Shown here: one piece after another, positions 27,170-44,037 of the stretch
How the letters are laid out: every line of letters begins with the position of its first letter
Position numbering within the stretch: the stretch's first letter is position 1
DNA from: a bacterium
Lineage (GTDB): Bacteria; Patescibacteriota; Patescibacteriia; SG8-24
NCBI GenBank assembly: GCA_021824285.1
Contig: JAKAKZ010000003.1
Coordinates: 571 to 64,570, forward strand
Length of the DNA stretch: 64,000 bases
Direction: 5' to 3'
Translations under genes and position numbers: made by a program
The notes under the pieces: generated by a model
Told to the model about the DNA's origin: nothing
What the model saw: only the letters and a program-made list of their open reading frames with translations
Databases searched by the model: none

Positions 27170-29215
27170 TTATTTCAAAACTACCTGAAACACGTCGGCC
27201 GTGAGCGTCAGTATTTCCGCTTTGCCGTCCTTGTCGATGTCCGCGGCTGCCACGTAGACGCCGTTGCGCGCTGCCGGGTCGCCGGCGAAGAAGCCCTTGC
27301 CCCAAGCTTTGCCATAACCGGAAAACACGCGGACGTGCGGTCCGCCGCCTGGCGCCGCCCCGGTAATGACTTCTGCCTTGCCGTCGCCATCCAGGTCAGC
27401 CGCGGCCACGCGGACGCCGCCGGTGAAACCGATGCCGTAAGGCTGGAAAGCGGCAATCTGCTGTCCGTCTTTGGAGTAGATGCGGACCATGGAGGTTGTG
27501 CCTTTGCCGCTGCCGGTCACGATGACCGGCCGGTTCGTGCCGTAGACGTCCGCCACCGCGACTTGTACGCCGCCACGCAGGTTCTTGTCGCCAGCGAAAA
27601 AGCCGGGGTTCCAGGCGTGTCCGTCAACGGTCCAAATGCGGACCTGCGGTCCGCCCCCCGCGCCGGCACCGGTCACGATTTCCGGAATGCGGTCGTTATT
27701 CAGGTCGCCGACCGCGATATGCACGCCGGCTGAATAGGTTTCGCCGTAGGGCGCGAAGGAGGCATGCACCGTACCGTCGGCGTTCCAGATCGTGACGCGG
27801 GTCTTGCCGCCGCTCACCTTGCCCAGCCGGCCGCTGCCGTCCAGGTCCGCAAAGACCATGTCAGCCTGGCCGTCGGCCGCCGCGTCATAGGCGAAGAAAC
27901 CGTTGCGCAGCCGGTCGCCGCTCGCATCATAGATCCGGGCGAACATGCCGTTCGGGAACGTGCTGCCGATGATTTTGGAAATTGGCTTGCGCAGCAGGAT
28001 GCCGTCCTGCGCCGAAAGCGTCACGGAATTGACCACCGTGCCATCGTTGACGTCCGGAGCCTGCGCGCCGCGGATCTTTTCCAGGTCTTGGCCGAAGGTA
28101 ACGGTCTGCGACCGGTTCGTGGAGTTGATGAGCACCACGCCGTCCTCGAAGTCGCGGCGCCAGACGCCGGGCGCCAGACTGCGCGAGCGCAGGTTCAGCA
28201 TGTTGATGGGCTGATTGATGGGGCGCCCCAGGTTCACGTCGTATTCGTCGTAACGCCAGAGCTGACCGTGGTCCTGTTCGCCGAAGTCGTAGGAGAAAAA
28301 GCCGTCGCCCAGGAGCGCGGAGGCGAGGCCGTAGCGCACGCGGCGGTAGTTCGTGCTCTGGTCCGTGTTGCCGCCGTTCATGTTGATGATGAAAGTCGCC
28401 GGATAGCCGACCTCGCGGTGCAGGTTGAGGTAATTCGCCATCACGCCCTGCCAGGTGCCGCCGGCCTCCCAGGGGGTAGGGAAGGACTCGAACATTCGGC
28501 CGTTCACGTACGGCTGCAGTTCGGCGGTCGAGTCGCCGTTCGTCACGATGACCGCGTCCTGACCGAGCAGGTCGCGCGTGGTCTTGAGCAGGTTGACCAT
28601 CGACCGTTTCCAGCCCGTATCGGCGAGCGCCGGGTCGTCTTTCACGCCGTCGCCGTTCAGATCCAGGTCGCCGCCGTTGACCCAGGAGATGTTCGACGAG
28701 AATTCGTCATAGAAAATACCGTCCCAGGCGCCGGAAGCCATGACCGTGTCTTTGGTGAAGTGCGCCAACCAATCACCCCAGCCGCGCAGGGGATTGAGCA
28801 TCCGGGTGCCGGACCAGATGGAAATCTGGTTGCCGCGGCCGTCCTTGAGCCACCAGTCGTCCTTGATGCCGGCACGCAGCTTGGCATGCACCGGATCGGT
28901 CCAGTACTGGTCGTTCCAGGATTTGGTCGGGATGTAGGCGAGGATGATGATCCGCGGGTTCAGCCGCCGCAGCTCGGAGAACATGCCGGCGTTGTAGTAC
29001 TGGGCCTCGAGCGGCAGGACGAGCAGGTCGTAGGCCGCGAGTTTCGGATAGTCCTGCGGTCCGATGTCCGAACCGGCGCGCATGTACATGTCGGCCGTGC
29101 GCACGAAGCGGTCGGCCGGGGTCTTCAAGGAAGCCGCCTCGGCCGGGAGCACGAGCGACAGCAGCGTCAAGGCCGCCACGGCAACCGTCAGTATTTTTTT
29201 CCAGTCAGCGCTCAT
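27170..29215 (-). CDS. secreted putative glycoside hydrolase (GH114/TM1410-like) with C-terminal FG-GAP repeats
   Basis: Signal peptide [27 protein letters not shown]. The N-domain (~400 aa) has a TIM-barrel-like pattern; GH114 assignment is tentative. The C-terminus has four or more FG-GAP-like repeats ([52 protein letters not shown]). Confidence 0.55.
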   Translation of the reverse strand: [681 protein letters not shown]

Positions 29216-29275
29216 AATAGTTCCACAACCGTTTCCATACTCCTAAACTCTAAACCCTAAGACATCAAATCTCCA

Positions 29276-29563
29276 CTACCCGCCGTCTTTATTGTCATCA
29301 GGCAGCGCCTTGGGGTTCGGGCTGTACAGCCGGTTCTTGATTTTCCACTGGTTCACGAATTGTCCGATGCCAAAATTCTTCGCCTTGTTCCTGATCTTGG
29401 GGCGCTCTTGGGACCAGCGGACCAGGCTTTCGAAATTGATCTTGTAGCGGCCGCGCACGACGACATATGTCAGAGCGCCGTCCGCCAGGGCACGGCGGAT
29501 GGTTCGGGTATTCACGCCGAAGAGCCGGGCGGCTTCGGAAACGGATACGCGGACGATGTTCAT
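29276..29563 (-). CDS. HTH_17/excisionase-family DNA-binding protein (95 aa)
   Basis: MNIVRVSVSEAARLFGVNTRTIRRALADGAL is a classic HTH. Start at the ATG at ~29563. It is divergent from the ECF sigma gene. Confidence 0.6.
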   Translation of the reverse strand: MNIVRVSVSEAARLFGVNTRTIRRALADGALTYVVVRGRYKINFESLVRWSQERPKIRNKAKNFGIGQFVNQWKIKNRLYSPNPKALPDDNKDGG

Positions 29564-29915
29564 AGCTGTGGGTGAAGATTGTGGGATAAAGATGCGGGCA
29601 GGAGGTGAGGCCATCAGATTAGATGCCCGTTTCTTTGCCGCCATCTCTATTTATCTCTCGATTTCTATTTATCACAATCCACAATATTAGTCAACATTAC
29701 TGTAGACTTATGTCGGCAATTTAGGCTCTTGAACCCTTTTGCTACAGTGCTTCGTATTAATGATTACGCAATCGCCGCCACCCATATATTCAGTCCGCCG
29801 TTGAGCTTCTTTGGGCTTAAAAGGATTGCCAGAAAGCACCCAGCATGCTATATTCGTCCAGTCATTTTAATCGGCAGGGTGGAGCTTATTTTCAATTCAA
29901 AGCTCCTCCCAGGGT

Positions 29916-29943
29916 GTAACGCTTGGCCGCTTCTTACGTCTAA
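29916..29943 (+). promoter_or_regulatory. candidate ECF-type autoregulatory promoter GTAAC-N16-CGTCTAA, 8 nt upstream of ATG
   Basis: gtGTAACgcttggccgcttcttaCGTCTAAttggATG. An AAC -35 and CGTC -10 resemble ECF sigma promoters. The transcript would be leaderless. Confidence 0.4.
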
Positions 29944-29947
29944 TTGG

Positions 29948-30547
29948 ATGTCGAACATTTTGAAAGAAAAATTCCTCCTGTTCCGCATCCGCGCCAAGAA
30001 GGACCCCGATGCCTTCGGCCAGATCTACGACGCCTACGTGCGCAAGATCTACCGTTTCATCTACTTCAAAGTCGCGAGCGCGGAACTGGCCGAGGATCTC
30101 ACTTCCGAGACCTTCCTGAAGGCCTGGCAGTACCTGATGGAGAAGCGTGAGGTCCCGCATCTGCAGGCCCTCCTATATACAGTCGCGCGCAACGTGGTCA
30201 TCGACCACTACCGCGCGGCGGCCCACCTGCAGGCGGACATCCCGCTCGACGAAGCCGTGGCCAACGAACTGACTTCCGCGGGGAGCGAAAAGCTCCTCAA
30301 GGACGTCGAGGCCGGCATCGACATGATGAAGGTGCTCGAGAAGCTCCGCGGACTCAAAGACGAGTACCGCGAAGTCGTGGTCATGAAGTATCTCGACGAG
30401 CTAACCACGAGTGAGATCGCAACGGCCTTGGGGAAGACTCAAGCCAACGTCCGGGTCATCCTGCACAGGGCGACCAAGGCGCTCGGCGATTCTATCCAAG
30501 ACGCCCGTGAACGAACTCCGCAAAATCCTGACCGCAGTGAAGAATGA
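29948..30547 (+). CDS. ECF-type sigma-70 family RNA polymerase sigma factor
   Basis: Region 2 (YRFIYFKV...AEDLTSETFLKAW) and region 4 (VVVMKYLDELTTSEIATALGKTQANVRVILHRATKAL). Start at MSNILKE, ATG 29948. Confidence 0.85.
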   Translation: MSNILKEKFLLFRIRAKKDPDAFGQIYDAYVRKIYRFIYFKVASAELAEDLTSETFLKAWQYLMEKREVPHLQALLYTVARNVVIDHYRAAAHLQADIPLDEAVANELTSAGSEKLLKDVEAGIDMMKVLEKLRGLKDEYREVVVMKYLDELTTSEIATALGKTQANVRVILHRATKALGDSIQDARERTPQNPDRSEE

Positions 30548-30602
30548 ACGGCGAGGTGGCGCCCCGCACGATTCTTGGGTTTCCCGCGAACGCGACATCC
30601 TG

Positions 30603-31568
30603 ATGATGCAGGTCCGCAACACGATGGACCTCAACGCGAAACCCGGACTCGGCGACTCGATGCGCCACCTTTTCGGTATCTTCCTGCCGCTCCAGACCCT
30701 GGCCCTCGCCGGCCGGGCCGTCGCGCTGTTCGCCCTGGTGTTCGCCACCGTCATCGGCGGCGGCGCCGCGACCGCCAACCTCTACCGGGCCGCCATGCCG
30801 GGCTCCGTGGGCTATTCCTTCAAGCTGGCCGTCGAGAAGCTGCAGCTGGCCGTCGCGCCGACCGCAGAATACCGTGCCAACCTGTTCGCCGAGTTCGCCG
30901 ACCGCCGCATGGATGAGGTGGCCAAGCTCGCGGAAGCCGGCAAGAGCCGCACGAGCGACCACCTGCCCTCCGTCCTGGCTTCCTTATCTAAAGACATCAC
31001 CGGTTTGGGCGGTGCGCTCGCCGATCTCGAGAAGTCCCGCGACGCCGCCTCGCTCGAATCCGCCAAGCTGATGGAGCGCAAGATGGCCAGCTACCAGGCC
31101 GCGCTTTCCAGGTCCGCGGCGCTCATCGCGCCGTCTTACCACGGCGACTTCCTGGCGGTGCGCGACCGTGTGGATGACCTCTCGGTCAAGGCCATGGCCG
31201 TCATCGTGGAGAAGCATCTGGAAGGGGACAGCGCGGCGCCGCGCGGCGTGCTCGTGGCCAAGTTCGAGGATCACCTGAACGAGGCCGAAGCGAAAGCCGA
31301 ACAGGCGGCGGCGACGGCATCGCCGGAGAAGACCCAGCAGACCAAGGCCGCCATCGCCGAAGCGAAACAGCTGGTGAAGGAAGAGAAGTACGAAGCGGCG
31401 CTCTCCAAGATGGCGGAAGTCGTCGAACTGACCAAGGATGTGGAGGCGACGAACCAGGATGAAGCCAAGACGAATGACGCCACAACCGACCATGTCGCGG
31501 CCCCGGACAAGAACGCCACGAACGATCTGACCGCCACGACCGACAAGACTGAAACGCCGAAACCATAA
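30603..31568 (+). CDS. DUF5667-like membrane protein (sigma-associated, anti-sigma candidate)
   Basis: Short N-terminus, TM helix (LFGIFLPLQTLALAGRAVALFALVFATVIGG), then PGSVGYSFKLAVEKLQLAV...FAEFADRRMDEVAKLAE matching DUF5667, then a coiled-coil with a K/E/A/T-rich tail. The start may lie earlier (a GTG at ~30537 overlaps the sigma gene stop). Confidence 0.6.
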   Translation: MMQVRNTMDLNAKPGLGDSMRHLFGIFLPLQTLALAGRAVALFALVFATVIGGGAATANLYRAAMPGSVGYSFKLAVEKLQLAVAPTAEYRANLFAEFADRRMDEVAKLAEAGKSRTSDHLPSVLASLSKDITGLGGALADLEKSRDAASLESAKLMERKMASYQAALSRSAALIAPSYHGDFLAVRDRVDDLSVKAMAVIVEKHLEGDSAAPRGVLVAKFEDHLNEAEAKAEQAAATASPEKTQQTKAAIAEAKQLVKEEKYEAALSKMAEVVELTKDVEATNQDEAKTNDATTDHVAAPDKNATNDLTATTDKTETPKP

Positions 31569-31699: not shown

Positions 31700-31776
31700 T
31701 TGTTGGGTTGAGAGTTGAAAGTTGACAGTTGAGTTCCGGCCGGGACTTTCAACTTTAAACTCTAAACTTTCAACCG
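31700..31776. repeat. AGTTGA/AACTTT-type inverted repeat
   Basis: gttgagagttgaaagttgacagttgag ... gactttcaactttaaactctaaactttcaacc. Confidence 0.5.
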
Positions 31777-32021
31777 CACGAACAATGCCATTGGGTCTGG
31801 CAACCGAACGCCTGACCGTGCGCCCGATCCGCGCGCCCGCTTCCCTTCGAAAAGGAACGGCCGCTGCAGATCGGCCGCACTGTCCGGTAACCGGTCGTTC
31901 AGACCCGTATATGTCGGAAACACGACGCATCAGCCCACAAGGTCGAGTCCCACAAGGACGCTGGCGCGTACGCCGCCGCAGGATTACCTGCGGGGCTACT
32001 CCAAAAGGATTACTTCAACTT

Positions 32022-35000
32022 ATGAACAACGTGTTACGTATGAGCCGGAAGGCCATGACGGGCGCTGTCGTCGCTACGACGATCGCCTGGTCCATCGGTC
32101 TCTCCGCCCTCGTCGCCCCGCTGGCCGTCAAGGCCGCGCCGGCTGCGGGCACGCTCGTCAAGGCTTCCCTCCCGGCCGTCTACTACGTCGGCTCGGACGG
32201 CAAGCGCTATGTCTTCCCGAACGAGAAGACCTACAAGACCTGGTACGCTGATTTCTCCAGCGTCCAGACCATCACTGATGCGGAACTCGCCGCGCTCCCG
32301 ATTGGTGGCAACGTCACCTACAAGCCGGGCGTCCGCATGATCAAGATCACCTCGCTCCCGAAGGTGTACGCCGTCTCCAAGGGCGGTGCGCTCCACTGGG
32401 TCACCAGCGAGGCGGTCGCCACCGCGCTCTACGGCGCGAACTGGAACAAGATGATCGATGACGTACCGGATTGGGCGTGGGTCAACTACGTCGAGTCCTC
32501 GGACATCAACTCGGCCAGCGATTTCAACGCTTCCTCCGAGTCGTCCATCGCCTCGATCAACCTCGACAAGAACCTCGGCAGCTCCGCTGTCGTTACGGGT
32601 GCCTTGTCCGCCTCTCTCAGCTCGAGCAGCCCGGCTGCCACGACGCTGCCGAAGGGCGCCACTGGCGTCGTTCTCGTCAAGCTTGATGTCCGCAACGGCG
32701 GTTCGTCCGCCGCGGTCGTCGACTCCCTGACGGTGCGCCGCTCCGGTCCGGGCGCGGCCTCGGATTTCTCCGCGGTCTACGTCTACAACGACAACAACCG
32801 CCTGACCACCGGTCGGACGATCAACTCGTCCACCAACGAGGCCTCGTTCAGCGGTCTCGGCCTGTCGCTCGCCGCTGGTGAGAGCAAGTCTCTCTCCATC
32901 GTCGCCGACATCGCCTCGTCCGTTGGCGCCGGCAACGTCAGCGCGTTCTCCGTCGTCTCTCTGAGCGCCGGTACGACCGCCGCTTCCGGCCTGCCGCTCG
33001 CTGGCCCGAACTTCACCATGTCTTCCGCCACGGCCGGTTCCCTGACTGTCACCAAGTCCGGCGCCAGCCCGCTGTCCAACGTCAAGTTGGGCGGTATGGC
33101 CCAGAAGATCGGTGAGTTCCAGCTCGCCGTCGGCTCCGCCGAGGATGTCCGCCTCGCCAAGATTGCCTTGTACGAGGCTGGCGCGGTCAGCAAGTCCTCT
33201 CTCTCCAACTTTGCCCTCAAGCAGGCCGGTCTGACGATCGCCACTGCCGCGGGTATCGACAGCAAGGATCGCGTCACCTTCGTGCTCGCGGCTCCGATGC
33301 TCCTGGAGAAGGGCACTTCCCGCACCTTCGAGGTGTTCGCTGATGTCGCGGCCAACGCCCGCGTCGGCTCCACCGAGACCATCCTCTCCTACGTCGATCA
33401 GGCCTCTGACGTTCTCGCGATCGGTCAGACCTACGGCGTCGGCGTGAGCGTGGATATCGGCTCCTCCGGCAACTACAACGGCACTTCCTGTGCCCTGGGC
33501 GCCGGCAACTGCTCCTCGACTCGCATTGAGGGCGGCCAGCTGACGGTTACCTTCAACGGCCCGGCCGTTAAGGACATCGCCGTCAACGGCAAGGATGTCG
33601 AGCTCTACAACTTCACCATGGCTGCGGCCAGCAACCTCGAAGTGCGCTACCTGCGCATGCAGATCAATGCTGCCAACGTCGCTGGTACCAACGACGGTCT
33701 CATCGACACGTCCGGCACCGCGGTCGCCAACTACTCGGACATCAAGGTCACCGACGTCGCCACTGGCGCCATCGTGGCCGGTCCGCTGTCGTTGAGCACC
33801 TCGGGTTCCGACTCCACCCAGGCTCTGACCTTCACCGAGGTGTTCAACCTCGCTCCGGGCCAGGCCCGCACCTTCAAGGTGACGGCTGATGTCGCGAACA
33901 ACGCCGACGCCACCTTCGCCAACGACACGGTCAGCATCGACCGCCTCGCTTGGAGCTCTGGTGACATCCGCAACCTGGACAACAGCACCAACATTGCCCT
34001 CTCCGACATCGTGCCGAACACGACTGCCGCGGGTAATGCCCACAACATCAAGTCCCCGAGCCTGACGGCCTCCGCCGGTTCCACGCCGGTCGCGCAGACC
34101 TTCATCATGGGTTCGCAGGGCGTCGCGTTCCTCGGTCTCAACCTGAAGGCGGGCGATGCGTCTGACATCAACGTCAGCTCGCTCACCCTCAAGGGCATGA
34201 TCGACGCTACGCAGGACGGCACCTTCGCCCAGGGTCAGGAATCCACTGGCAACACTGTCGCCGCGGTCGTCGCGACGGCTAAGCTGATGAACGGTGCGAC
34301 CCAGCTCGGTCAGACCAAGTCCCCGGCCACGTCTTCGGGCGTCGGCACTGGCGGCGACATGACCTTCGACAACCTGAACCTCACGGTTCCGAAGGGCCAG
34401 TCGCTCGCTCTGACGCTCGTCGTCAACCTGAACGGCGGTCTCGGCTCGATCTCGAGCGACCTCCGCTTCGACGTGACCGCCGGCTCCGCTACGGATGCTG
34501 ACGGCAACAACGTCTCGGTCAGCGGCCTGACGGTCACTGGCACGAAGATGACGGTCAAGTCCGCCGGTACGCTCACGCTGGCTCTCGCTCCGGATGATAC
34601 GGAGTCCGAGGCCGGTCTGGTCGTCGGTGGTTCTTCGAACGCCGTCCTCGGCAAGTTCAAGTTCACCGCCCAGAACGAGGAGCTGAAGCTCACCAAGCTT
34701 AACGCCACGGTCGATACGGCCGCCGGCGTCAGCAGCTTGAGCCTCTTCGACGGTTCCACCCTCGTCGCCGGTCCGATCGGCGTCGACGGCACGGGCCTCG
34801 CCTCCTTCACTGGCGTCAACTTCGTCATCCCGAAGGATGCTTCTAAGGTCCTGACCGTTAAGGGCAACCTGAACGCGGTGGGCGCCTCCGGCGCTACGAC
34901 CGGTTCCTCGGTCCGCCTCGGTCTGTCCACCACCAACTTCGAGGTCCGCGGCACGTCGGCCGGCTCCAGCACTCTGCTGACCGCCCCGTCCTCCGGCGCC

Positions 35001-35561
35001 TTCCCGTTGGCGGCCAACCCGAAGGTCGCCCGCAAGTCCAAGCCGACGGTGTCCGTTGTCGCTCTGCCGACCACGACGCTGTCCGGCGGCGACCAGGTCG
35101 TCCTGCGCTTCACGGTTGCGGCTGACGCTGCCAGCGACATCTCGCTCGGCCAGCTCCACGCCACGATCACGAAGAGCGGTTCCGTCGTCGTTGCCCTCCC
35201 GGCTTCGCCGACCACCAAGACCCTGCGCCGCACTGGTGGTGACTTCATCACCCTCGGCACTGTGACCTTCTCGACCAACGACCTGCTCATGGTCCTCTCC
35301 ACGGAGGAGACCGTCGCGGCTGGCACGTCCAAGACCTTCGAGGTCTACATGAACATGACCAGCGCCGCGAACGGCGACAGCGTTACGTCCACCATCCCGA
35401 CGGATGCGGCTAGCGCCACGGGCACTCTGTCCGGCCTCTCGGCCAACAACTTTGTCTGGTCCGACATGTCCATTGTCGGCCACGGCACGGGTACGGCTGA
35501 CTGGGCTTCTGGCTACAAGGTCAAGAGCCTGCCGACGGACTCCCAGTCGCTGGTCAAGTAA
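32022..35561 (+). CDS. giant secreted surface protein (1179 aa): conserved ~105-aa N-terminal module + long low-complexity beta-rich region
   Basis: Signal peptide MNNVLRMSRKAMTGAVVATTIAWSIGLSALVAPLAVKAAPAAG. The module AVYYVGSDGKRYVFPNEKTYKTWY...VTYKPGVRMIKI...KVYAV...LYGANWNKMIDDVPDWAWVNY is followed by ~1000 aa of A/S/T/G/V-rich repeats. The opposite-strand 1149-aa ORF is an artefact. Confidence 0.75.
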   Translation: MNNVLRMSRKAMTGAVVATTIAWSIGLSALVAPLAVKAAPAAGTLVKASLPAVYYVGSDGKRYVFPNEKTYKTWYADFSSVQTITDAELAALPIGGNVTYKPGVRMIKITSLPKVYAVSKGGALHWVTSEAVATALYGANWNKMIDDVPDWAWVNYVESSDINSASDFNASSESSIASINLDKNLGSSAVVTGALSASLSSSSPAATTLPKGATGVVLVKLDVRNGGSSAAVVDSLTVRRSGPGAASDFSAVYVYNDNNRLTTGRTINSSTNEASFSGLGLSLAAGESKSLSIVADIASSVGAGNVSAFSVVSLSAGTTAASGLPLAGPNFTMSSATAGSLTVTKSGASPLSNVKLGGMAQKIGEFQLAVGSAEDVRLAKIALYEAGAVSKSSLSNFALKQAGLTIATAAGIDSKDRVTFVLAAPMLLEKGTSRTFEVFADVAANARVGSTETILSYVDQASDVLAIGQTYGVGVSVDIGSSGNYNGTSCALGAGNCSSTRIEGGQLTVTFNGPAVKDIAVNGKDVELYNFTMAAASNLEVRYLRMQINAANVAGTNDGLIDTSGTAVANYSDIKVTDVATGAIVAGPLSLSTSGSDSTQALTFTEVFNLAPGQARTFKVTADVANNADATFANDTVSIDRLAWSSGDIRNLDNSTNIALSDIVPNTTAAGNAHNIKSPSLTASAGSTPVAQTFIMGSQGVAFLGLNLKAGDASDINVSSLTLKGMIDATQDGTFAQGQESTGNTVAAVVATAKLMNGATQLGQTKSPATSSGVGTGGDMTFDNLNLTVPKGQSLALTLVVNLNGGLGSISSDLRFDVTAGSATDADGNNVSVSGLTVTGTKMTVKSAGTLTLALAPDDTESEAGLVVGGSSNAVLGKFKFTAQNEELKLTKLNATVDTAAGVSSLSLFDGSTLVAGPIGVDGTGLASFTGVNFVIPKDASKVLTVKGNLNAVGASGATTGSSVRLGLSTTNFEVRGTSAGSSTLLTAPSSGAFPLAANPKVARKSKPTVSVVALPTTTLSGGDQVVLRFTVAADAASDISLGQLHATITKSGSVVVALPASPTTKTLRRTGGDFITLGTVTFSTNDLLMVLSTEETVAAGTSKTFEVYMNMTSAANGDSVTSTIPTDAASATGTLSGLSANNFVWSDMSIVGHGTGTADWASGYKVKSLPTDSQSLVK

Positions 35562-36449: not shown

Positions 36450-36495
36450 AGCGCGCTTTCTTTTACACCGTAGCGGCGTCCTTTCAAGGCAGTTA

Positions 36496-36575
36496 TCCAC
36501 AAGGGGACTGTCCCTTTTTTGGTCAAAAGGGACTGTCCCTTTTTGGCCCAAAAGGGACTGTCCCCTTTGTGCTAT
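36496..36575. repeat. REP cluster (3 units) on the other flank of RAYT
   Basis: ccacaaggggactgtcccttttttggtcaaaagggactgtccctttttggcccaaaagggactgtcccctttgtgc. Confidence 0.7.
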
Positions 36576-36586
36576 ACTTGGCGCAT

Positions 36587-37789
36587 ATGCGCCCACGACT
36601 CCTTTCTCATCTCGCGCTGGCATCATTGCTGGCCGTCTCTCTAATTCCTTCCATGCCCGCCGCTGCCACCGGGCAGACTTACGTTGCGGATACCGAAATC
36701 CAGGTCGGCAGCTCGACGCTCAAGATCATGGCCGGCTCCGAGGCGGACAGTCTGTCAGTCGCCGGCAACAGCCTGACCGTGACCGTGGCGCCGGATGAGG
36801 TCTTTGACCTGCGCTATCCGGGCGGCAATCCGCTGGGTCTCGAGAACGATTCCGGCTTGGCCGCCTGCAACGTCCTGCCGAACCGCGATAACCAGCTGCT
36901 GATCACCGGGCCGCACACCGTGACTGTCTCGGTCAGCACCTTCGCCTGCAGCACGGCCAATTACAGCACCAACAGCACGCCCCTTCTCACCGTCTCCCAG
37001 CCGGCTGGCGGAGCGTCGTTCAAGCCCGGCGATAGCGCGCAGATCTTCTGGCAGCTGACCGGCCATTCCGTGGCCAGCATCCGGATCCGCCTGTCCGTCG
37101 ACGGGGGATTGAGCTATCCGACCACCTTGGTCGACAACCTGCTGAACAGCGGCTTCTATTCCTGGACCGTGCCGGAGATGACCACGACGACGCACGCCCG
37201 GCTGAAGATCGAGGGGCGCACCCAGGGGGCAACGTCCGCCTGGGCCTTGAGCCAGGAATTCTCCATCCAGGGCGCAGCGCCCGCCGCGCCGGCTGAAACG
37301 GCGGCGCCGGCACCTGGCGGTTATTCGCCAGAGGCGGTCACGGCCGAGGCCGATTCCATCGGGCATGATCGGGGCTTTGTCAGTACGCCGGAAGCCGCAT
37401 CCTCCGAGTGCCCGGCCGGATTGCGTATCAAGGGTCGCGGTCTGCCAGCGGTCTATTACTGCGGCCCGGACGGCAAGCGGCATCCTTTCCCGAACCAGAA
37501 GATCCATGATTCGTGGTATGCCGGCGATTTCGCCGGAGTCTACGAGGTCGCCGACTCGACCCTGGCGCGGATTGCGCTCGGCCAGAACGTGACCTACCGG
37601 CCTGGAGTGCGCATGGTCAAGGTGACTACGGACCCCAAGGTCTATGCCGTGGACGCCGACGGCACGCTGCGGTGGATCAAGACCGAAGCGGCGGCGGCGC
37701 GGCTTTACGGCGCGGACTGGAACAAGAAGATCGATGACCTGCCGGACGCCTTCTTCTTCGATTACCATACAGGCGATCCCATCGAATGA
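36587..37789 (+). CDS. secreted protein with C-terminal copy of the conserved ~105-aa module
   Basis: Signal peptide MRPRLLSHLALASLLAVSLIPSMPAAA. The mid-region resembles Ser/Thr-rich surface domains. The C-terminus AVYYCGPDGKRHPFPNQKIHDSWY...VTYRPGVRMVKV...KVYAV...LYGADWNKKIDDLPDAFFFDY is the shared module. Confidence 0.65.
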   Translation: MRPRLLSHLALASLLAVSLIPSMPAAATGQTYVADTEIQVGSSTLKIMAGSEADSLSVAGNSLTVTVAPDEVFDLRYPGGNPLGLENDSGLAACNVLPNRDNQLLITGPHTVTVSVSTFACSTANYSTNSTPLLTVSQPAGGASFKPGDSAQIFWQLTGHSVASIRIRLSVDGGLSYPTTLVDNLLNSGFYSWTVPEMTTTTHARLKIEGRTQGATSAWALSQEFSIQGAAPAAPAETAAPAPGGYSPEAVTAEADSIGHDRGFVSTPEAASSECPAGLRIKGRGLPAVYYCGPDGKRHPFPNQKIHDSWYAGDFAGVYEVADSTLARIALGQNVTYRPGVRMVKVTTDPKVYAVDADGTLRWIKTEAAAARLYGADWNKKIDDLPDAFFFDYHTGDPIE

Positions 37790-37906
37790 ACGCGACGGCG
37801 GACCGCCGGCCCCAGCGGCCGGCGGTTTTGGCTCACGGCCCGGCGGTTGCCAAGCCCCGACTTTTCGGCTAGGGTCAGTGATGTATTACAGCTAATTTTC
37901 AACCGT

Positions 37907-39106
37907 ATGCGCCGCAATATCCAGCATTTCCCGCTCGCCGTCCTGATGTCCCTGGCTCTCGCCCTGCCGCTCCTGCCGGCGCGACCGGCCGCCGCGACCG
38001 TTCTGGGTGTCTTTCCGGGCGACCTCATCAAGCTGCAGGACGACCATAATTCCCAGACGCATGAGGACGAGGCCGTCTATTATTTCGACAAGGATTGGTT
38101 CCGCCATCCCTTCCCGAACCAGCGCGTGTTCATGAGCTGGTACCGGGACTTTTCCGGCGTGAAGTCGCTGTCCACGACGGACATGGCCGATATCCGCATG
38201 GGGGCGCCCGTGACCTACCGGCCCGGCACGCGGCTCGTGAAAATCCCTTCAATCCCGAAAGTCTACGCAGTGGAACCGGGCGGCATTCTGCGCTGGATCA
38301 CGGACGAGTCGGTCGCCAAGGACCTCTATGGCGCCAACTGGTCCAAGCGGGTGGACGACGTGAGCGAGGCCTTCTTCGTCAACTACAAGGAAGGCGAACC
38401 GCTGCGCACGGCAATGTGGCCGACCGGCACGCTGGTCCGCAATCCGGCGGACAAGACGCTTTATGTCATCGACGGCTACTCGCGCCGCCATGTCACCGCG
38501 ACGGAAGCCGCGTCGCTGCGGCTTAACGAGTCCGACGCGCTGGACGGCGGCACGGCTATTGAGGAGCTGCCCATGGGACCGTCGGCCACAGCCGGCGGCG
38601 ACCGCCTGTCCGATACCGCCGAGCTTTCCCGGATCGAGACCTTGCCGGCCCTGCAGATAGATTTCCCGGCGCCGGTCACGGCCGCGGCACGCGGCGCGGA
38701 GCAGGTGCTCCTGTCCATGCGGCTCACTGCCGGCGCGCCGGTAACCTTACGGCGTCTCACGGCCAAGCTCTCCGGACCGGTCCGGCTGAACGGCCAGCCG
38801 CTGCTCACTGATCTGCGGTTTGAGGATTCGGCGGGCGAGAACATCTTCGGCACGGTCCAGCTGCCGGCCGACAGCGGAGACGAACTCGCGACGCTCGTCT
38901 GGAACGGTGCCTTCACTCTGCAGGCCGGCACGGAAGACATGGTGAAACTGCTGGCATCGGTCTCGGCGGACATGCCGGCCGGAGCGCAACTGACCATCGA
39001 GCTGCCGCGGTCCGGATCCTACGTCTCCGATGGCTTCGACGCTGAGGAACGCGCGCAATTCGCGCCGCCCGGCGAACTCCCGGACGCCAAAGTGACCTTC
39101 CGCTAA
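37907..39106 (+). CDS. secreted protein with N-terminal copy of the conserved ~105-aa module
   Basis: Signal peptide MRRNIQHFPLAVLMSLALALPLLPARPAAA. AVYYFDKDWFRHPFPNQRVFMSWY...VTYRPGTRLVKI...KVYAV...LYGANWSKRVDDVSEAFFVNY. Confidence 0.65.
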   Translation: MRRNIQHFPLAVLMSLALALPLLPARPAAATVLGVFPGDLIKLQDDHNSQTHEDEAVYYFDKDWFRHPFPNQRVFMSWYRDFSGVKSLSTTDMADIRMGAPVTYRPGTRLVKIPSIPKVYAVEPGGILRWITDESVAKDLYGANWSKRVDDVSEAFFVNYKEGEPLRTAMWPTGTLVRNPADKTLYVIDGYSRRHVTATEAASLRLNESDALDGGTAIEELPMGPSATAGGDRLSDTAELSRIETLPALQIDFPAPVTAAARGAEQVLLSMRLTAGAPVTLRRLTAKLSGPVRLNGQPLLTDLRFEDSAGENIFGTVQLPADSGDELATLVWNGAFTLQAGTEDMVKLLASVSADMPAGAQLTIELPRSGSYVSDGFDAEERAQFAPPGELPDAKVTFR

Positions 39107-39112
39107 GAGAAG

Positions 39113-39140
39113 GAACGCGCCTCCCCAGGCGCGTTTTTTC
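39113..39140 (+). terminator. rho-independent terminator
   Basis: aacgcgcc-tcccca-ggcgcgtt followed by ttttc. Confidence 0.7.
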
Positions 39141-39162
39141 GCCGCCGAACTCCTGGGCCGAA

Positions 39163-39175
39163 CGGTGGTATAATG
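39163..39175 (+). promoter_or_regulatory. extended -10 TGGTATAAT ~8 nt upstream of ATG (leaderless candidate)
   Basis: cggTGGTATAATggccgcatATGg. Confidence 0.45.
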
Positions 39176-39182
39176 GCCGCAT

Positions 39183-41498
39183 ATGGTTACGGCATCCCGT
39201 ATGGGCAAGATTCTGGCTGCCGCCGCCTGCCTGGCGGCGGTATTGGCGGTCCGTCCGCCGGCGGAAGCCGCTGCTTCGTACCAGGCCGGCGACCTGGTCA
39301 AGGCACCGGACAGCCGAGCCGTGTATTACGTCGGCTCCGACGGCCGGCGCTATGTCTTTCCGAACCAGCTGACCTACCTGACCTGGTACGGAGATTTCGC
39401 GTCGGTCAGGACCATCGCGGACGCGGAATTGGCCGCTCTTTCGATCGGCGGCAACGTCACTTACCGCCCCGGAACCAGGCTCGTGAAGATCGTCTCCGAT
39501 CCGCGGGTCTATGCCGTCGAACCGGGCGGCGTCCTGCGGCCAATTCCGGACGAGAGCGCGGCCGTCGCGCTCTACGGCGCGGACTGGTCGAAGCGGGTGG
39601 ACGATGTCCCTGATGCATTTTTTTTCAGCTACCGGATCGGCGCGCCGCTCGCGGCCGCGGCCTACCCGGAAGGCTCTTGGGTGCGGCGGGTCTCCGACGG
39701 CCGGATCTTCCTGATCCAAGACGGCCAGAAACGTGAGGTCTCCGGCTCATTGCTCACCGCGCTTCGCGTCACCGCGGCGCAGATCATGCCGGAGACGGCC
39801 GACCTGAACGGCTATGCCCTCGGCGCGCCGCTTGAGCAGACCGAGAGCCTGAACGACACCGCCCAGCTGGGCATCGAGCGGACTACCGCCGCTCCCGTGG
39901 CGTCGCTCTACCTGCAGCCGGCGACCGACCCCGGCATGCCAATCTACGTACGTGGAACCAAGGACGCGGCCATCGCTGGCCTGCTCCTCATGGACGGTTC
40001 CGCGGATCCGGTCACGGTCTCGGCCATCACCTTCCAGGGTTACGTGGACAGCGAAGGCACTGCGGGCTTCCTGCCGGCGGTGGATTCCGATGGGGGATCG
40101 GCCAAGCACGTGAATGCGATCCTGCCGGCCGCGTCTCTCTACGACGACACCGGCCGACTGCTGGCCGGTCCGGTGCCGATCGGACTTGACGGCCGGGCGT
40201 TCTTCAGCGGTTTCCGCCTGGCGGTTCCGGCCGGCGGCAGCCGTACGGTCGTGATCAGAGGGGACATCCCGGCGTACCTGGATACCGGTCTCGAGCCGGA
40301 TTATCTAGCGTTCGACGTGGAGGACGCGGTCCGCGACGTCACGGTCACGGATGCGGCCGGCGGCAGCGTCAAAGCGACCGGCAACCGGCCGAATCGCGGG
40401 ACCGAGGCCTTCAACTACGCGAAGATTCTGCGCAGCGGAACGGTCAATTTCACCTGGCGCGGCACGACGACCGTGATGATCGGTGGGCGCGACGCCAAAC
40501 TCGGCACTCTGACGGTGGATACGAAATACGATACCTACGCCTTGCGCACGATTGCCTTCCGGCGGACCAGCCAGACTTCTTATGGCGACGCGCGGCTGGA
40601 ATATCCCGGTGCGGACGGCAAGACCGTTTCGAAGACGGTCCAATGGCGCGGCGGCGCGGCCGTGTTCACCGATTTGGGAGCGTACTTGCCGCGGGACTCG
40701 TCCGTGGGCCTCGCGCTCTACGCGCAGGTCCTGTCCCGCGATACCGGGGGAGTCTACGGCGATGCGCTTGGCGCGCAGCTCGACACCGCCGGACCGCTGC
40801 AGTTCGTATCCCAGGCCGAGGGCGCGACCTATTCGGAGAAGGATTTGGGCAACGGTTCGTTTGGTCTCGTGGCCAATACGGCCGGTCGGGTAACGGTTCG
40901 CTATTCCGGCTTGAGCGTCACGCCGTTGCCGACCGCCGTCGCATTCCGCGACAGCAATACGCCGCTGCTGGCCTTCTCCGCCAAAGCGGAACCCGAGGGT
41001 CCCATCCGGATCAGGAAGATGACGTTTCGCATCAGCCCGGATGACGCGGGACGTTCCGGGGCCGCGAATGATGCGCTCGAACTCTGGGCGGGACGTCCGG
41101 CGACTTCGATTGCAGCCGTGCGCCGCGTCTATTCGACCACGACCGAACTCCTCGGTACTCCCGGCAACGGCCGGCTGCGTTTCCGGGAGTGGCGCGGCAA
41201 CGGCACGGAGATCGACCAGGCGCAGCCGTTCCAGTCGAACATCGGCGACTACGCCACGCTGGAGCTGGACTTCGGCGAGAACGGCGAGTATCTGATACCG
41301 GCTGGCCTGACGGCCGATTTCCGGTTCGAATTGGACACGACCGTTTTCCCGACTGATCGCGATCACCGCTGCGCCGTCGAGCTGCGCGGCGACGCGGATT
41401 TCCTTTGGACCGACATCCCGTATGGCGCCTACACCGCGCTCGGCGGCACGGACGCGGGCGGTGTGCCCTTCTCGGCCACGGTTACGGTGAATAAATAA
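39183..41498 (+). CDS. secreted protein (771 aa) with N-terminal copy of the conserved ~105-aa module
   Basis: Signal peptide MVTASRMGKILAAAACLAAVLAVRPPAEA. AVYYVGSDGRRYVFPNQLTYLTWY...VTYRPGTRLVKI...RVYAV...LYGADWSKRVDDVPDAFFFSY, then ~600 aa without a recognised domain. The start could alternatively be MGKIL at 39201. Confidence 0.65.
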   Translation: MVTASRMGKILAAAACLAAVLAVRPPAEAAASYQAGDLVKAPDSRAVYYVGSDGRRYVFPNQLTYLTWYGDFASVRTIADAELAALSIGGNVTYRPGTRLVKIVSDPRVYAVEPGGVLRPIPDESAAVALYGADWSKRVDDVPDAFFFSYRIGAPLAAAAYPEGSWVRRVSDGRIFLIQDGQKREVSGSLLTALRVTAAQIMPETADLNGYALGAPLEQTESLNDTAQLGIERTTAAPVASLYLQPATDPGMPIYVRGTKDAAIAGLLLMDGSADPVTVSAITFQGYVDSEGTAGFLPAVDSDGGSAKHVNAILPAASLYDDTGRLLAGPVPIGLDGRAFFSGFRLAVPAGGSRTVVIRGDIPAYLDTGLEPDYLAFDVEDAVRDVTVTDAAGGSVKATGNRPNRGTEAFNYAKILRSGTVNFTWRGTTTVMIGGRDAKLGTLTVDTKYDTYALRTIAFRRTSQTSYGDARLEYPGADGKTVSKTVQWRGGAAVFTDLGAYLPRDSSVGLALYAQVLSRDTGGVYGDALGAQLDTAGPLQFVSQAEGATYSEKDLGNGSFGLVANTAGRVTVRYSGLSVTPLPTAVAFRDSNTPLLAFSAKAEPEGPIRIRKMTFRISPDDAGRSGAANDALELWAGRPATSIAAVRRVYSTTTELLGTPGNGRLRFREWRGNGTEIDQAQPFQSNIGDYATLELDFGENGEYLIPAGLTADFRFELDTTVFPTDRDHRCAVELRGDADFLWTDIPYGAYTALGGTDAGGVPFSATVTVNK

Positions 41499-41852: not shown

Positions 41853-41867
41853 ACAAAATAACTGTAC

Positions 41868-41892
41868 AACCCCGCCTAGCGCGGGTTTTTCC
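41868..41892 (+). terminator. terminator after small ORF
   Basis: aaccccgc-ctagc-gcgggtttttcc. Confidence 0.55.
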
Positions 41893-42030
41893 GTTTCCGT
41901 GCCTTGCGTTGTCGCTACGGCCACGCTCTGTTACAATTCGCGCATTATGCGGTTGTCTGTATCGCCTGTCCATGAGCGCCGTTGCGGCGGAATCGACCGT
42001 ACAGCTAAGCGGTTAAGGACCGTCGGCGCC

Positions 42031-44037
42031 ATGCTGCTGCTCATGGCCATTTTGCCGTCCGCGGCATGGGCGCAGGAGCGTCAGCCGAACGATCCGCTTT
42101 ACGGCGAGCAATGGTATCTGCACAAGATCGCCGCGGCGCAGGCTTGGGGCAGCACACTCGGTTTCGAAGGCGTGACGGTGGCGGTCATCGATTCCGGCGT
42201 CGACATCGACCATCCGGACCTTAAGGAGAATATCTGGACGAACCGCAACGAGATTCCCGGCAACGGCATCGATGATGACCTGAACGGCTACGTGGATGAC
42301 GTCCACGGCTGGGATTTCGTGGATAACGACAACGATCCGCGGCCGTCGCTCGTGAAGCCCTACAGCGTCATCGGCGCGAGTCACGGCACCGTTACGGCGA
42401 GCCTCATCGCGGCGCGCGGCGACAACGGCCGGGGACTCACGGGCGTGACTTGGCAGACTACGGTCATGCCGCTGCGGGTGCTGGATTCGAGCGGCGAGGG
42501 CAACTCGATGAGCGTGGTCCGCGCCGTCGAGTATGCGGTGAAGAACGGCGCCAAAGTGATTAACCTGGGCTTCGTCGGCGACGTCGGCGGCGATCTGCTG
42601 CGGATTGCCCTGCGCCGCGCCTATGACGCCGGCGTGACGGTCGTGGCCGCGGCCGGCAATGCCCCGGAGGGCGGGGTGGCCACCGACCTGGATGCGACAC
42701 CGCTTTATCCGGTCTGCTTCGACGCCAACGCAACCGACGATTTCGTGATCGGCGTCGCCGCCACGGACGAGTTCGACACCCTGACCGATTTCTCCAACTA
42801 CGGCGCCAAATGCGTGGACGTCTCCGCGCCCGGCAGCCGCATCTTGGCCGCCAAGCCCTACCGGCCGGAGAATCCGGACTTCAACAAGCTGTACGGCGGC
42901 TACTACAGCGGCACATCGGTGGCAACGCCCCTGGTTTCCGGCGCGGCCGCGTTGCTCCTCTCCATGAATCCGCGCCTGACCCCCGCGCAGATCCTGGCGC
43001 TCTTGGGTTCGACGGCGGCCAAGGTCACGGCCCCACGGACCGGCGCGGCCGGACGGGGACGCCTGGATGTCGGGGCGGCCGTGAGAGCACTCGAGGAACA
43101 GTTGGCCTCCAGGGCCCCGATGCAGTCCGCCGCTCCGGCAGCTGTACCCGGAGGCAAGATGATCGCGGTGGCGGCCGGTCCAGGCCGCGCGCCGGACATT
43201 CGGCTGTTTACCGCTGAAGGCCTGTTCATCCGCGAGTTCGCCGCTTTCCCGAAAGAGTTCCGGGGTGGCATTTCCCTGTCGGCCGGTGACTTGGACGGCA
43301 GCGGTTCTTATCAGTTGGCTGCCGGCGCCGGACCGGGCGGCCTGCCGCAAGTGCGGATTTTCGACCGAAACGGCAGCGAGTCCGGCACCTTTTTGGCCTT
43401 CGATTCCGGTTTCCGCGGCGGCGTCTCCGTGGCGGTGGGCGACGTCCAGGGCAAGGGACGTGCGGCAATCGTGGCCGCGGCCGGGCCGGGCGGCGGACCG
43501 CACGTGCGTATTTTCGACGCGCGCGGCGTGCCAATCGGCGGAGGATTCTTCGCCTTCGACAAGGGGTTCCGCGGCGGCCTGTCAGTGGGTGTGGGCGATC
43601 TGAACGGCGACGGCAAGGCGGAGATAGCCGCCGTCTCCGGAGCCGGTATGCCGGTCACGGTCCGGACTTTCGACCTGCGCGGCAATCTGCTCGGTTCGTT
43701 CCAGCCTTTCGGCAGCCGTGAACGGCGCGGCGCCAGGATTTCGGTTCAGGATATAGACGGCGACGGGACCGCCGAACTGCTCGTGACGCTCGGCGTCAAG
43801 AACGCCAAGCCGGTCGCATTCACGTCCGCCGGCCGCCGCCTCGGGGAATTCGACGGCGCCAAAGCGCTGTTTGCGGACAGCCGAAAATGGTCCTCCGGCA
43901 CGCCTGACGCCCTGACTTGGACCGCGGCCGGCAGCCCGCCAGCCGTGACCGTCTTTTCCTCGTCCGCGGCGCCGCTTCAGTTCCAGGCTTTCGAGAAGAA
44001 GTTCGCCGGCGGCGTGACGGCCGCGGTGCTGAAATGA
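42031..44037 (+). CDS. secreted subtilisin-like S8 serine peptidase with C-terminal FG-GAP repeats
   Basis: Signal peptide [16 protein letters not shown]. Catalytic triad motifs [13 protein letters not shown] (Asp), [12 protein letters not shown] (His) and [16 protein letters not shown] (Ser). The C-terminus has 5-6 repeats such as [27 protein letters not shown]. An alternative ATG lies at ~41947. Confidence 0.8.
   Translation: [668 protein letters not shown]

What the first reader, a model, noticed from the sequence alone, without database searches (positions are those of the whole stretch)
27170..44037. Two different secreted enzymes (putative GH114-like hydrolase and S8 peptidase) carry homologous C-terminal FG-GAP repeat blocks
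The gene at 27170-29215 (minus) and the gene at 42031-44037 (plus) both end with 4-6 repeats of the form [26 protein letters not shown]. These are integrin-alpha FG-GAP-like beta-propeller blades. The repeats are more similar to each other than to anything else in the window. The two enzymes bracket the ECF sigma and surface-protein region. A shared propeller may target both enzymes to the same surface structure or substrate, consistent with a co-functioning envelope-remodelling set.
Basis: seen in the sequence. Interest (0 to 1): 0.5.

Follow-up and report, generated by a model that had tools for sequence, protein, structure and literature searches.

The report
Two secreted enzymes sharing propeller tails
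A secreted sugar-cutting enzyme and a secreted protease from an uncultivated, small-genome bacterium (Patescibacteria, probably Uhrbacteria) both end in the same common kind of calcium-loop beta-propeller, and they flank a conserved cell-surface gene cluster; the architecture is real but ordinary, and it already exists in hundreds of database genomes.

Summary
Gene A (27170-29215, minus) encodes a signal peptide, a GHL15/GH168-like TIM-barrel hydrolase, a beta-sandwich and five FG-GAP blades. Gene B (41947 or 42031 to 44037, plus) encodes a signal peptide, a thermitase-like S8 protease and a six-bladed FG-GAP propeller. The two tails are homologous (36-37% identity, E 1e-32).

The tails are not specially related to each other. 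Blades differ as much within one protein as between the two. The A-type and B-type propellers are old, separate lineages. The same module occurs in more than 15,000 protein clusters with many different partner domains.

Both full architectures are conserved in Patescibacteria, mainly Candidatus Uhrbacteria. In 192 species-level genomes gene A has a relative, and it sits in a strongly conserved locus: glycan genes, a DUF11-like protein, gene A, HTH_17, an ECF sigma factor, DUF5667, big surface proteins, an S8 protease, then more glycan genes.

The syntenic S8 carries FG-GAP in 21 cases. In 8 cases it instead carries an uncharacterised ~120-aa domain that it shares with the neighbouring surface proteins.

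My best reading, which is inferred, is that the tails are calcium-dependent modules that retain or target the enzymes at the cell envelope. Their function is untested. I rate this as a new member of a known kind, of low to moderate interest.

The parts
27170..29215 (-). Gene A, 681 aa: secreted GHL15/GH168-like glycoside hydrolase with a C-terminal FG-GAP propeller
   Evidence: The AF2 model has pLDDT 91.7 and pTM 0.83.
29135..29215 (-). Gene A signal peptide (aa 1-27, [28 protein letters not shown])
   Evidence: Read directly from the sequence. The model shows a helix at residues 3-21. No signal-peptide predictor was run.
28211..29104 (-). Gene A (beta/alpha)8 catalytic domain (aa ~38-335). 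The candidate catalytic residues D170 and E243, and N226, are invariant in the family.
27986..28168 (-). Gene A beta-sandwich domain (aa ~350-410) between the barrel and the propeller
   Evidence: DSSP strands 351-409 in the model.
27191..27955 (-). Gene A FG-GAP propeller, five 4-stranded blades (aa 421-675). DxDxDGxxE loops at residues 607 and 659.
41947..44037 (+). Gene B, 696 aa (668 aa if it starts at 42031): secreted thermitase-like S8 peptidase with a C-terminal FG-GAP propeller
   Evidence: The AF2 model has pLDDT 90.8.
42079..43116 (+). Gene B subtilase domain (aa 45-390). The triad D82/H146/S324 and oxyanion N238 are invariant. No I9 propeptide was detected.
43144..44034 (+). Gene B FG-GAP propeller (aa 400-696). 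The model has six blades, with the first strand (405-410) completing the last blade. DxDxDGxxE loops at residues 551 and 602.
25143..27062 (-). 639-aa membrane-anchored DUF11/NEW3-like protein directly downstream of gene A, probably in the same operon
   Evidence: Weak Pfam hits. Present about 2 kb downstream of gene A in nearly all related loci.
29276..29563 (-). Small HTH_17 protein directly upstream of gene A on the same strand
   Evidence: Pfam. Gene calls in L001, L002, L004 and L006. Conserved in essentially all loci that have enough flank.
29948..30547 (+). ECF-type sigma factor, divergent from the HTH_17/gene A unit
30507..31568 (+). DUF5667 protein with a transmembrane segment, in the position of an anti-sigma factor
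   Evidence: The anti-sigma role is inferred.
31722..35561 (+). Large secreted surface protein (ORF 1279 aa, likely start near 32022) with the uncharacterised ~120-aa 'YYxGxDGKRYVFPN' domain near its N-terminus
36569..41498 (+). Three further secreted proteins (36569-37789, 37847-39106, 39183-41498), each carrying one copy of the same ~120-aa domain
20729..25066 (.). Left glycan-synthesis flank: Wzy_C (20729-22294 +), GT4 (22358-23635 +), GT4 (23672-25066 -)
   Evidence: Syntenic in related loci.
44045..50630 (+). Right glycan-synthesis flank: GtrA, two epimerase/dehydratases, GT2, DUF2304, two GT4
   Evidence: Same gene order in L003 and L005.

Best explanation
What it is (shown). These are two conserved, Sec-exported enzymes of a Patescibacteria (Uhrbacteria-type) cell-envelope locus. 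Gene A is a GHL15/GH168-like hydrolase with the family's catalytic Asp/Glu pair (the characterised GH168 enzymes use a retaining mechanism), followed by a beta-sandwich and a five-blade FG-GAP propeller. Gene B is a thermitase-like S8 protease with an intact catalytic triad, joined by a flexible linker to a six-blade FG-GAP propeller. The propellers are homologous copies of a very widespread, promiscuous extracellular module. They are two anciently separate lineages, not a recently shared block.

How it most likely works (inferred). After export and signal-peptide cleavage, neither protein has a membrane anchor or a sortase signal. The propeller, with its integrin-like DxDxDGxxE calcium loops, then serves as the binding module that keeps each enzyme at the cell envelope, on a wall or surface glycopolymer or on the surface-protein layer. 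There the hydrolase would trim or process the surface polysaccharide made by the flanking GT/Wzy/GtrA genes. The protease would mature or turn over the large surface proteins encoded between the two genes. The whole set may be under the local ECF sigma/DUF5667 pair.
For: - Domain identities.
- Active sites are conserved. D170, E243 and N226 of gene A are invariant in 60 homologues and align with GH168 D172, E243 and N218 (PMC12534559). D82, H146, S324 and N238 of gene B are invariant.
- Both full-length architectures are conserved in more than 120 protein clusters each (90%-identity clusters), at 37-82% identity, named Uhrbacteria or Patescibacteria by their sources.
- Gene A relatives occur in 192 species-representative genomes.
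- Locus conservation: HTH_17, ECF sigma, DUF5667, a surface-domain protein, the DUF11-like protein and Wzy_C sit at nearly fixed offsets in the related loci that have enough flank. An S8 gene lies within 10 kb in 26 of 41 loci with full flank. Full gene-by-gene synteny is seen in three relatives.
- The S8 C-terminal module is either FG-GAP (21 cases) or the ~120-aa domain shared with the adjacent surface proteins (8 cases). This is what one expects of interchangeable localisation modules that place the protease beside those proteins.
- Elsewhere the same propeller type is fused to wall-acting domains: YceG/MltG, YkuD and polysaccharide deacetylase.
- The structural relatives of domain A include enzymes that cut secreted exopolysaccharides, such as PelA and Ega3. 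From my own knowledge, not checked here, these are encoded within the biosynthetic loci of those polymers.
- Calcium-loop motifs are present and conserved in the family.
Against: - No ligand or localisation data exist, and the organism is uncultivated.
- The propeller module is generic, so sharing it does not imply a shared target.
- The A and B propellers show no co-evolution within genomes.
- A crude search for a shared promoter found no common motif upstream of the S8 genes, so co-regulation by the ECF sigma factor is unsupported.
- GH168 enzymes characterised so far degrade exogenous sulfated fucans, which would fit a nutritional role instead.
- 15 of 41 loci have no S8 within 10 kb. This is partly a limit of the flank: the gap is 12.7 kb in the window and about 21 kb in L002/L003.
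- Ring closure of the five-blade model could not be inspected.
Confidence: 0.55

Rival explanations
1. The propellers are substrate-targeting, lectin- or CBM-like modules aimed at external polymers. These could be host-cell surface or environmental polysaccharide and glycoprotein. The two enzymes would then be nutrient-scavenging or host-attacking exoenzymes of an auxotrophic episymbiont, not tools for remodelling the cell's own envelope.
For: The nearest characterised relatives of domain A are GH168 endo-fucanases that degrade exogenous sulfated fucan. The closest structural relative of the S8 domain is deseasin MCP-01; from my own knowledge, not checked here, it is a secreted degradative protease with a C-terminal substrate-binding domain. 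Also from my own knowledge, FG-GAP propellers can act as lectins (Psathyrella velutina lectin). The module is fused to many unrelated extracellular domains.
Against: Gene A is placed with high conservation inside a glycan-biosynthesis, sigma-factor and surface-protein locus. The S8 paralogue shares a domain with the cell's own surface proteins. Identity to GH168 enzymes is only 15-19%, so specificity cannot be transferred.
Confidence: 0.25
2. The propellers are mainly structural or regulatory appendages with no independent targeting role. They could act as a folding or stabilising domain, like the P-domain of kexin-type S8 enzymes, or as a spacer that holds the catalytic domain away from the membrane.
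For: In gene A the barrel, sandwich and propeller are predicted as one rigid unit (pTM 0.83). Gene A never lacks the propeller in 80 loci.
Against: In gene B the propeller is attached by a low-confidence linker (residues 392-397, pTM 0.62). In orthologous loci it is replaced by an unrelated domain, so the S8 fold does not need it. The conserved calcium-loop motifs point to ligand or ion binding.
Confidence: 0.12
3. The shared block results from recent domain shuffling or gene conversion between the two genes of this genome.
For: Only the visual similarity of the repeats.
Against: Propeller A of the window scores 231-257 bits against A-type propellers of eight other genomes, but only 108 bits against its own genome's propeller B. 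No within-genome excess appears in any of the 9 genomes. Several alignment registers score equally. Between-protein blade identity is about the same as within-protein identity.
Confidence: 0.02

Closest known systems
GH168 / GHL15 glycoside hydrolases (endo-alpha-1,3-L-fucanases such as Fun168A, PbFucA and the Muricauda eckloniae enzyme, PDB 9jom, 8rg3, 9nhf)
   Different: Identity is only 15-19%. Gene A adds a beta-sandwich and an FG-GAP propeller. It lies in a Patescibacteria envelope locus rather than a marine fucoidan-utilisation locus. Its substrate is unknown.
Clostridioides difficile S-layer enzymes Cwp19 (GHL10 hydrolase + CWB2) and Cwp84 (protease + CWB2)
   Same: This is a comparison of how the system works, not of membership. 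In both cases a GHL-type TIM-barrel hydrolase carries repeated cell-wall-binding domains and is encoded in a surface-polymer locus (PMC5765458). From my own knowledge, Cwp84 is a protease with the same CWB2 module that processes the S-layer precursor. Cwp19 is also a distant structural hit of domain A (E 1e-7).
   Different: The shared module here is an FG-GAP propeller (or the ~120-aa domain), not CWB2. The protease is a serine S8 enzyme, not a cysteine protease. No binding or processing has been shown.
Integrin alpha-type FG-GAP propellers and bacterial FG-GAP/VCBS repeat proteins
   Same: Pfam FG-GAP and FG-GAP_3 hits. The family profile hits integrin alpha-V at E 2.4e-6. DxDxDGxxE calcium-loop motifs are present.
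   Different: Five and six blades are predicted instead of seven. The blades are short (~50 aa) and highly regular. The propeller is fused to catalytic domains.
Hydrolases acting on secreted exopolysaccharides: PelA hydrolase domain, Ega3 (GH135), GH114/GH191
   Different: These are lower-ranking matches than GH168. There is no Pfam GH114 hit. Their substrates are cationic GalN-rich polymers, and that is unknown here.
Thermitase and deseasin MCP-01 (S8A subtilases)
   Different: No propeptide was detected. The C-terminal domain is an FG-GAP propeller rather than none (thermitase); from my own knowledge, deseasin MCP-01 carries a PKD domain there.

Membership tests
FG-GAP repeat propeller (Pfam PF01839 / PF13517) | Repeat profile matches above the gathering score in both proteins | tested here: met
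   Gene A scores 50.0 and 37.2 bits; gene B scores 34.7 and 30.6 bits. The cut-offs are 26.9 and 22.1.
FG-GAP repeat propeller (Pfam PF01839 / PF13517) | Sequence homology to integrin alpha propeller blades | tested here: met
FG-GAP repeat propeller (Pfam PF01839 / PF13517) | Calcium-binding DxDxDGxxD/E hairpin loops | tested here: met
   Motif at A607, A659, B551 and B602. The family consensus has it in nearly every blade. Metal binding itself cannot be tested with these tools.
GHL15 / CAZy GH168 | Pfam PF14885 match above the cut-off | tested here: met
   E 3e-32, 113 bits against a cut-off of 27, covering profile positions 2-271 of 271.
GHL15 / CAZy GH168 | (beta/alpha)8 fold closest to solved GH168 structures | tested here: met
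GHL15 / CAZy GH168 | Catalytic Asp and Glu (D172/E243 of WfGH168_II) and conserved Asn | tested here: met
   The alignment pairs FYD170E with FMD, and RMFE243 with MIE, of GH168 chains. N226 pairs with N of the 'YNG' motif. All three are invariant in 60 homologues. Residue identities are taken from PMC12534559.
GHL15 / CAZy GH168 | Endo-alpha-1,3-fucanase activity on sulfated fucan | not testable with these tools
   Identity is 15-19%, so the substrate cannot be inferred.
GH114 (endo-alpha-1,4-polygalactosaminidase) | Family-level sequence match (Pfam Glyco_hydro_114) | tested here: not met
   There is no PF03537 hit at E<=0.01. Only weaker structural similarity was found (9ep6 E 1e-6). The relationship is at superfamily level only.
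Peptidase S8 (subtilase) | Pfam match plus the Asp-His-Ser triad and oxyanion Asn | tested here: met
Type VII secretion mycosin (TIGR03921) | Equivalog score above the curated cut-off | tested here: not met
   155.5 bits against a cut-off of 278.75.
Known wall-anchoring modules (CWB2, SLH, LysM, LPXTG sortase signal) | Presence of such a module or motif in gene A or gene B | tested here: not met
   No such Pfam hit. Neither C-terminus has an LPXTG motif or a transmembrane segment. An anchoring role for the propeller is therefore inferred by analogy only.

The most novel reading that the evidence does not exclude
The locus may be a Patescibacteria-specific surface-layer system. In this reading the FG-GAP propeller and the uncharacterised ~120-aa 'YYxGxDGKRYVFPN' domain are two interchangeable envelope-anchoring modules. 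The large proteins carrying the new domain would form the surface layer. The S8 protease, which carries either module, would mature them. The GHL15 hydrolase would tailor the glycopolymer they bind. The local ECF sigma/DUF5667 pair would control the set. That would be a functional analogue of the Clostridioides CWB2/S-layer system in an episymbiotic lineage whose surface biology is almost unknown.
Probability: 0.25. Interest if true: 0.6.

Novelty: new member of a known kind. Interest (0 to 1): 0.3.

Why it matters
The finding as stated is routine domain architecture. Both protein families are already in public databases under generic names ('putative glycoside hydrolase', 'VCBS repeat-containing protein', 'S8 family serine peptidase').

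The context has modest value. Patescibacteria live attached to host cells, and their cell-surface machinery is largely uncharacterised. This work delineates a strongly conserved Uhrbacteria envelope locus. It assigns the hydrolase to the recently defined GH168/GHL15 group with intact catalytic residues. It also shows that the protease swaps its C-terminal module between an FG-GAP propeller and a new domain shared with the neighbouring surface proteins. That gives concrete, testable candidates for how these cells retain enzymes on their surface.

Tried and rejected
- **Recent shuffling or concerted evolution of the two propellers:** rejected by the 9-genome propeller BLAST matrix and the blade-by-blade identity matrix.
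- **Shared C-terminal '...VLK' ending as a sorting signal:** not conserved in either family consensus, so it is treated as coincidence.
- **Other FG-GAP genes in the window:** none found by regex.
- **GH114 membership:** no Pfam hit, and GH168 is closer.
- **Mycosin or dentilisin identity for the S8:** all NCBIfam equivalog scores are far below their cut-offs.
- **Shared promoter for genes A and B:** a dyad k-mer search on the 250 nt upstream of sigma, S8, HTH_17 and gene A across loci found a conserved TTGAC-N17-CTAC element only in the HTH_17/sigma divergent region (40 of 71 loci). Nothing was conserved upstream of the S8 genes (at most 5 of 30). The exact motif is absent from the window. 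The window does have a TTGACT-N17-TAAATA sigma-70-like site upstream of HTH_17, near 29665-29693 on the minus strand.
- **Identity of the ~120-aa surface-protein domain:** no Pfam family above threshold, no PDB sequence match, and only 48 unnamed Patescibacteria hits.
- **Literature:** no paper combines FG-GAP with Patescibacteria and none mentions DUF5667. One CPR paper mentions FG-GAP only in passing.
- **Per-genome census of the block:** could not be done, because only 22-kb loci are held and not whole genomes.

Full report
**1. Observation**

The two ORFs are present as described.

Gene A (27170-29215, minus strand, 681 aa) starts with a classical Sec signal peptide (…LPAEA|AS). Gene B ends at 44037. 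A public gene call uses the ATG at 42031 (P0121, 668 aa). The in-frame ATG at 41947 adds a positively charged n-region and gives 696 aa, which is the numbering used here.

Pfam places GHL15 (E 3e-32) plus FG-GAP_3 and FG-GAP in A, and Peptidase_S8 (E 1.5e-46) plus FG-GAP_3 and FG-GAP in B. All hits are above the gathering thresholds.

The two C-termini align at 36-37% identity with E 1e-32. A six-frame motif scan finds no other such block in the 64-kb window.

**2. Anatomy of gene A**

AlphaFold2 with a 60-sequence alignment gives a confident model (pLDDT 91.7, pTM 0.83). It contains:
- a signal helix;
- a (beta/alpha)8 barrel (about residues 38-335);
- a beta-sandwich (about 350-410);
- twenty strands forming five 4-stranded blades (421-675).

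A profile of the N-terminal domain hits GH168 chains by sequence (E 5e-8). It aligns FYD170E, TN226G and RMFE243SF with the GH168 motifs that contain the published catalytic Asp and Glu and a conserved Asn (PMC12534559). These residues are invariant in 60 homologues.

The specific family is GHL15/GH168. At 15-19% identity the substrate cannot be transferred.

**3. Anatomy of gene B**

No I9 propeptide is detected, and the mycosin and other NCBIfam equivalog scores fall below their cut-offs.

I could not inspect the coordinates to check that the five-blade ring closes.

**4. How the two propellers are related**

Both belong to the integrin-alpha FG-GAP lineage. The family profile hits integrin alpha-V at E 2.4e-6. 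Both carry DxDxDGxxE calcium-loop motifs, two canonical copies each in the window proteins and nearly every blade in the family consensus.

They are not each other's special relatives:
- In a propeller-only comparison across nine genomes that encode both genes, A-type propellers score 200-330 bits with each other and B-type 170-260. A-to-B scores are only 105-160 bits, with no within-genome excess.
- Blade-to-blade identity is 36% within A, 42% within B and 34% between them.
- Several alignment registers score equally.

An exhaustive HMMER search with propeller B finds 15,282 cluster representatives (3,191 at E<=1e-30). These proteins range from 283 to 4,954 aa, and the module sits at any position in them. 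A Pfam census of 67 of the best hits shows fusions to S8, DUF11, He_PIG, P-domain, PKD, YceG/MltG, YkuD, polysaccharide deacetylase, cyclophilin and others.

The block is a generic, promiscuous extracellular module. Each enzyme has inherited its own copy vertically for a long time.

**5. Distribution and context**

Both full-length architectures are conserved in more than 120 protein clusters each (90%-identity clusters), at 37-82% identity. Where a source names them, it is Candidatus Uhrbacteria, Parcubacteria or Patescibacteria, with the descriptions 'putative glycoside hydrolase', 'VCBS repeat-containing protein' or 'S8 family serine peptidase'. A scan of one genome per species finds gene A relatives in 192 genomes.

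Gene-by-gene neighbourhoods in three relatives reproduce the window's order. The order is:
- GT4 and Wzy_C;
- a ~640-aa DUF11-like membrane protein;
- gene A;
- HTH_17;
- the ECF sigma factor and everything after it, transcribed divergently from gene A;
- DUF5667;
- a ~1,200-aa protein and further large proteins;
- the S8 gene;
- GtrA, epimerase, GT2, DUF2304 and GTs.

I ran tblastn with the window's proteins against the 80 fetched loci. Wherever enough flank is available, HTH_17, sigma, DUF5667, a surface-domain protein, the DUF11-like protein and Wzy_C sit at nearly fixed offsets. An S8 domain lies 6.4-9.7 kb upstream in 26 of 41 loci that have the full 10-kb flank. This is a lower bound, because the gap is 12.7 kb in the window and about 21 kb in L002/L003.

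In a more distant Parcubacteria genome the S8-FG-GAP gene again sits among glycan genes, but without gene A nearby.

**6. An unexpected detail**

The four large secreted proteins between A and B have no Pfam domains. They share a ~110-120-aa domain (…AVYYVGSDGKRYVFPN…VTYRPG…KVYAV…LYGA.W…DD.PDAFF…). It has no PDB sequence relative, and its only database hits are unnamed Patescibacteria proteins, many of them stand-alone.

In 8 of the 31 S8 genes found in the fetched loci and the window, the protease is about 545 aa long and ends in this same domain instead of an FG-GAP propeller (for example L062:2169-3806). Of the rest, 21 carry FG-GAP, one carries neither and one is cut by the locus end. Some loci have both S8 types side by side (L006, L060). 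Gene A always keeps its propeller.

So the protease shares a C-terminal module either with the hydrolase or with the surface proteins. This is the behaviour expected of interchangeable localisation modules.

**7. Mechanism**

*Shown:* the domain identities, the conserved active sites, the secretion signals, the absence of any other anchor, the conserved locus and the modular swap.

*Inferred:* the propeller is a calcium-dependent binding module that retains or targets each enzyme at the envelope. The hydrolase would process the polysaccharide made by the flanking GT, Wzy and GtrA genes. From my own knowledge, the hydrolases PelA and Ega3 are likewise encoded within the biosynthetic loci of the exopolysaccharides they cut. 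The protease would mature or turn over the adjacent surface proteins.

The closest working analogy is C. difficile. There Cwp19 (a GHL10 hydrolase) carries CWB2 wall-binding repeats and is encoded in a surface-polymer locus (PMC5765458). From my own knowledge, the protease Cwp84 carries the same CWB2 module. This is an analogy of function, not family membership.

I put 0.55 on this reading. The rivals are:
- substrate targeting of foreign or host polymers (0.25). The nearest characterised enzymes are degradative, and FG-GAP lectins exist;
- a purely structural or folding role (0.12). For gene B this is contradicted by the flexible linker and the replaceable module;
- recent shuffling (0.02), refuted.

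**8. Co-regulation**

A crude dyad search found a conserved promoter-like element only in the HTH_17/sigma divergent region. Nothing was conserved upstream of the S8 genes. Control of both enzymes by the ECF sigma factor remains unsupported.

**9. Novelty and score**

The finding as written is a new member of a known kind. FG-GAP tails on secreted enzymes are common, and both families are already deposited under generic names.

In the searchable library I found no paper that describes this Uhrbacteria locus, and none that mentions DUF5667. The ~120-aa domain has no Pfam family, no PDB sequence relative and no named homologues. The context is therefore mildly interesting for the cell-surface biology of this candidate-phyla-radiation lineage.

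Interest is 0.3. The most novel reading that the evidence does not exclude is a Patescibacteria surface-layer system with two interchangeable anchoring modules. I give it a probability of about 0.25 and an interest of about 0.6 if true.

Noticed in passing
window 31722-35561, 36569-37789, 37847-39106, 39183-41498 (all +); also L062:2169-3806(-), L081:1384-3012(-): An uncharacterised ~110-120-aa domain ('AVYYVGSDGKRYVFPN…VTYRPG…KVYAV…LYGAxW…DDxPDAFF') occurs once in each of four large secreted proteins. In relatives it also forms the C-terminus of a ~545-aa S8 protease paralogue. It has no Pfam family, no PDB sequence match, and only unnamed Patescibacteria homologues, many of them stand-alone proteins of 130-210 aa.
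   Followed up: partly
window 35868-36626 (-): An IS200-like Y1 transposase/RAYT-type gene (PF01797, E 1.8e-10) is inserted between the surface-protein genes. A relative (L004/L005) has a 23S_rRNA_IVP-family gene at a comparable position, so this intergenic spot appears to tolerate insertions.
   Followed up: no
window 29276-29563 (-), and intergenic 29564-29947: A small HTH_17 protein sits immediately upstream of gene A in essentially every related locus. The divergent HTH_17/sigma intergenic region carries a conserved TTGAC-N17-CTAC element in 40 of 71 relatives, plus an inverted TTGTC…GACAA-like repeat. The window has a TTGACT-N17-TAAATA site instead.
   Followed up: partly
window 25143-27062 (-): A 639-aa protein with an N-terminal transmembrane segment and weak DUF11/NEW3-like Ig repeats always follows gene A (about 2 kb downstream in nearly all loci). 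It is probably co-transcribed and is a candidate partner of the hydrolase.
   Followed up: partly
loci L008, L011, L013, L022, L023 and many others: Many public MAG records that carry this clearly Patescibacteria-type locus are titled 'uncultured Gammaproteobacteria bacterium' (TPA assemblies). Others are titled Binatia, Acutalibacteraceae or Vicinamibacterales. These look like mislabelled or mis-binned contigs.
   Followed up: no
window 27170-27178 and 44026-44034: Both proteins end in the tripeptide V-L-K. The ending is not conserved in either family consensus, so it is probably coincidence.
   Followed up: yes
window 44531-45565 and 45633-46775 (+): Two tandem NAD-dependent epimerase/dehydratase paralogues lie directly after GtrA, with a third GDP-mannose-dehydratase-like gene at 58369-59526. 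Relatives show only one epimerase at the first position.
   Followed up: no
window 13342-20553 (+): A run of about seven ORFs of 235-320 aa has no Pfam match. It is interrupted by an HtrA-like Trypsin_2+PDZ protease (14878-16023) and lies upstream of the Wzy_C gene.
   Followed up: no
P0212, P0228: Some Patescibacteria proteins combine S8, an FG-GAP propeller and a YceG/MltG endolytic transglycosylase in one ~1,050-aa polypeptide. This links the propeller-bearing protease directly to peptidoglycan metabolism.
   Followed up: no
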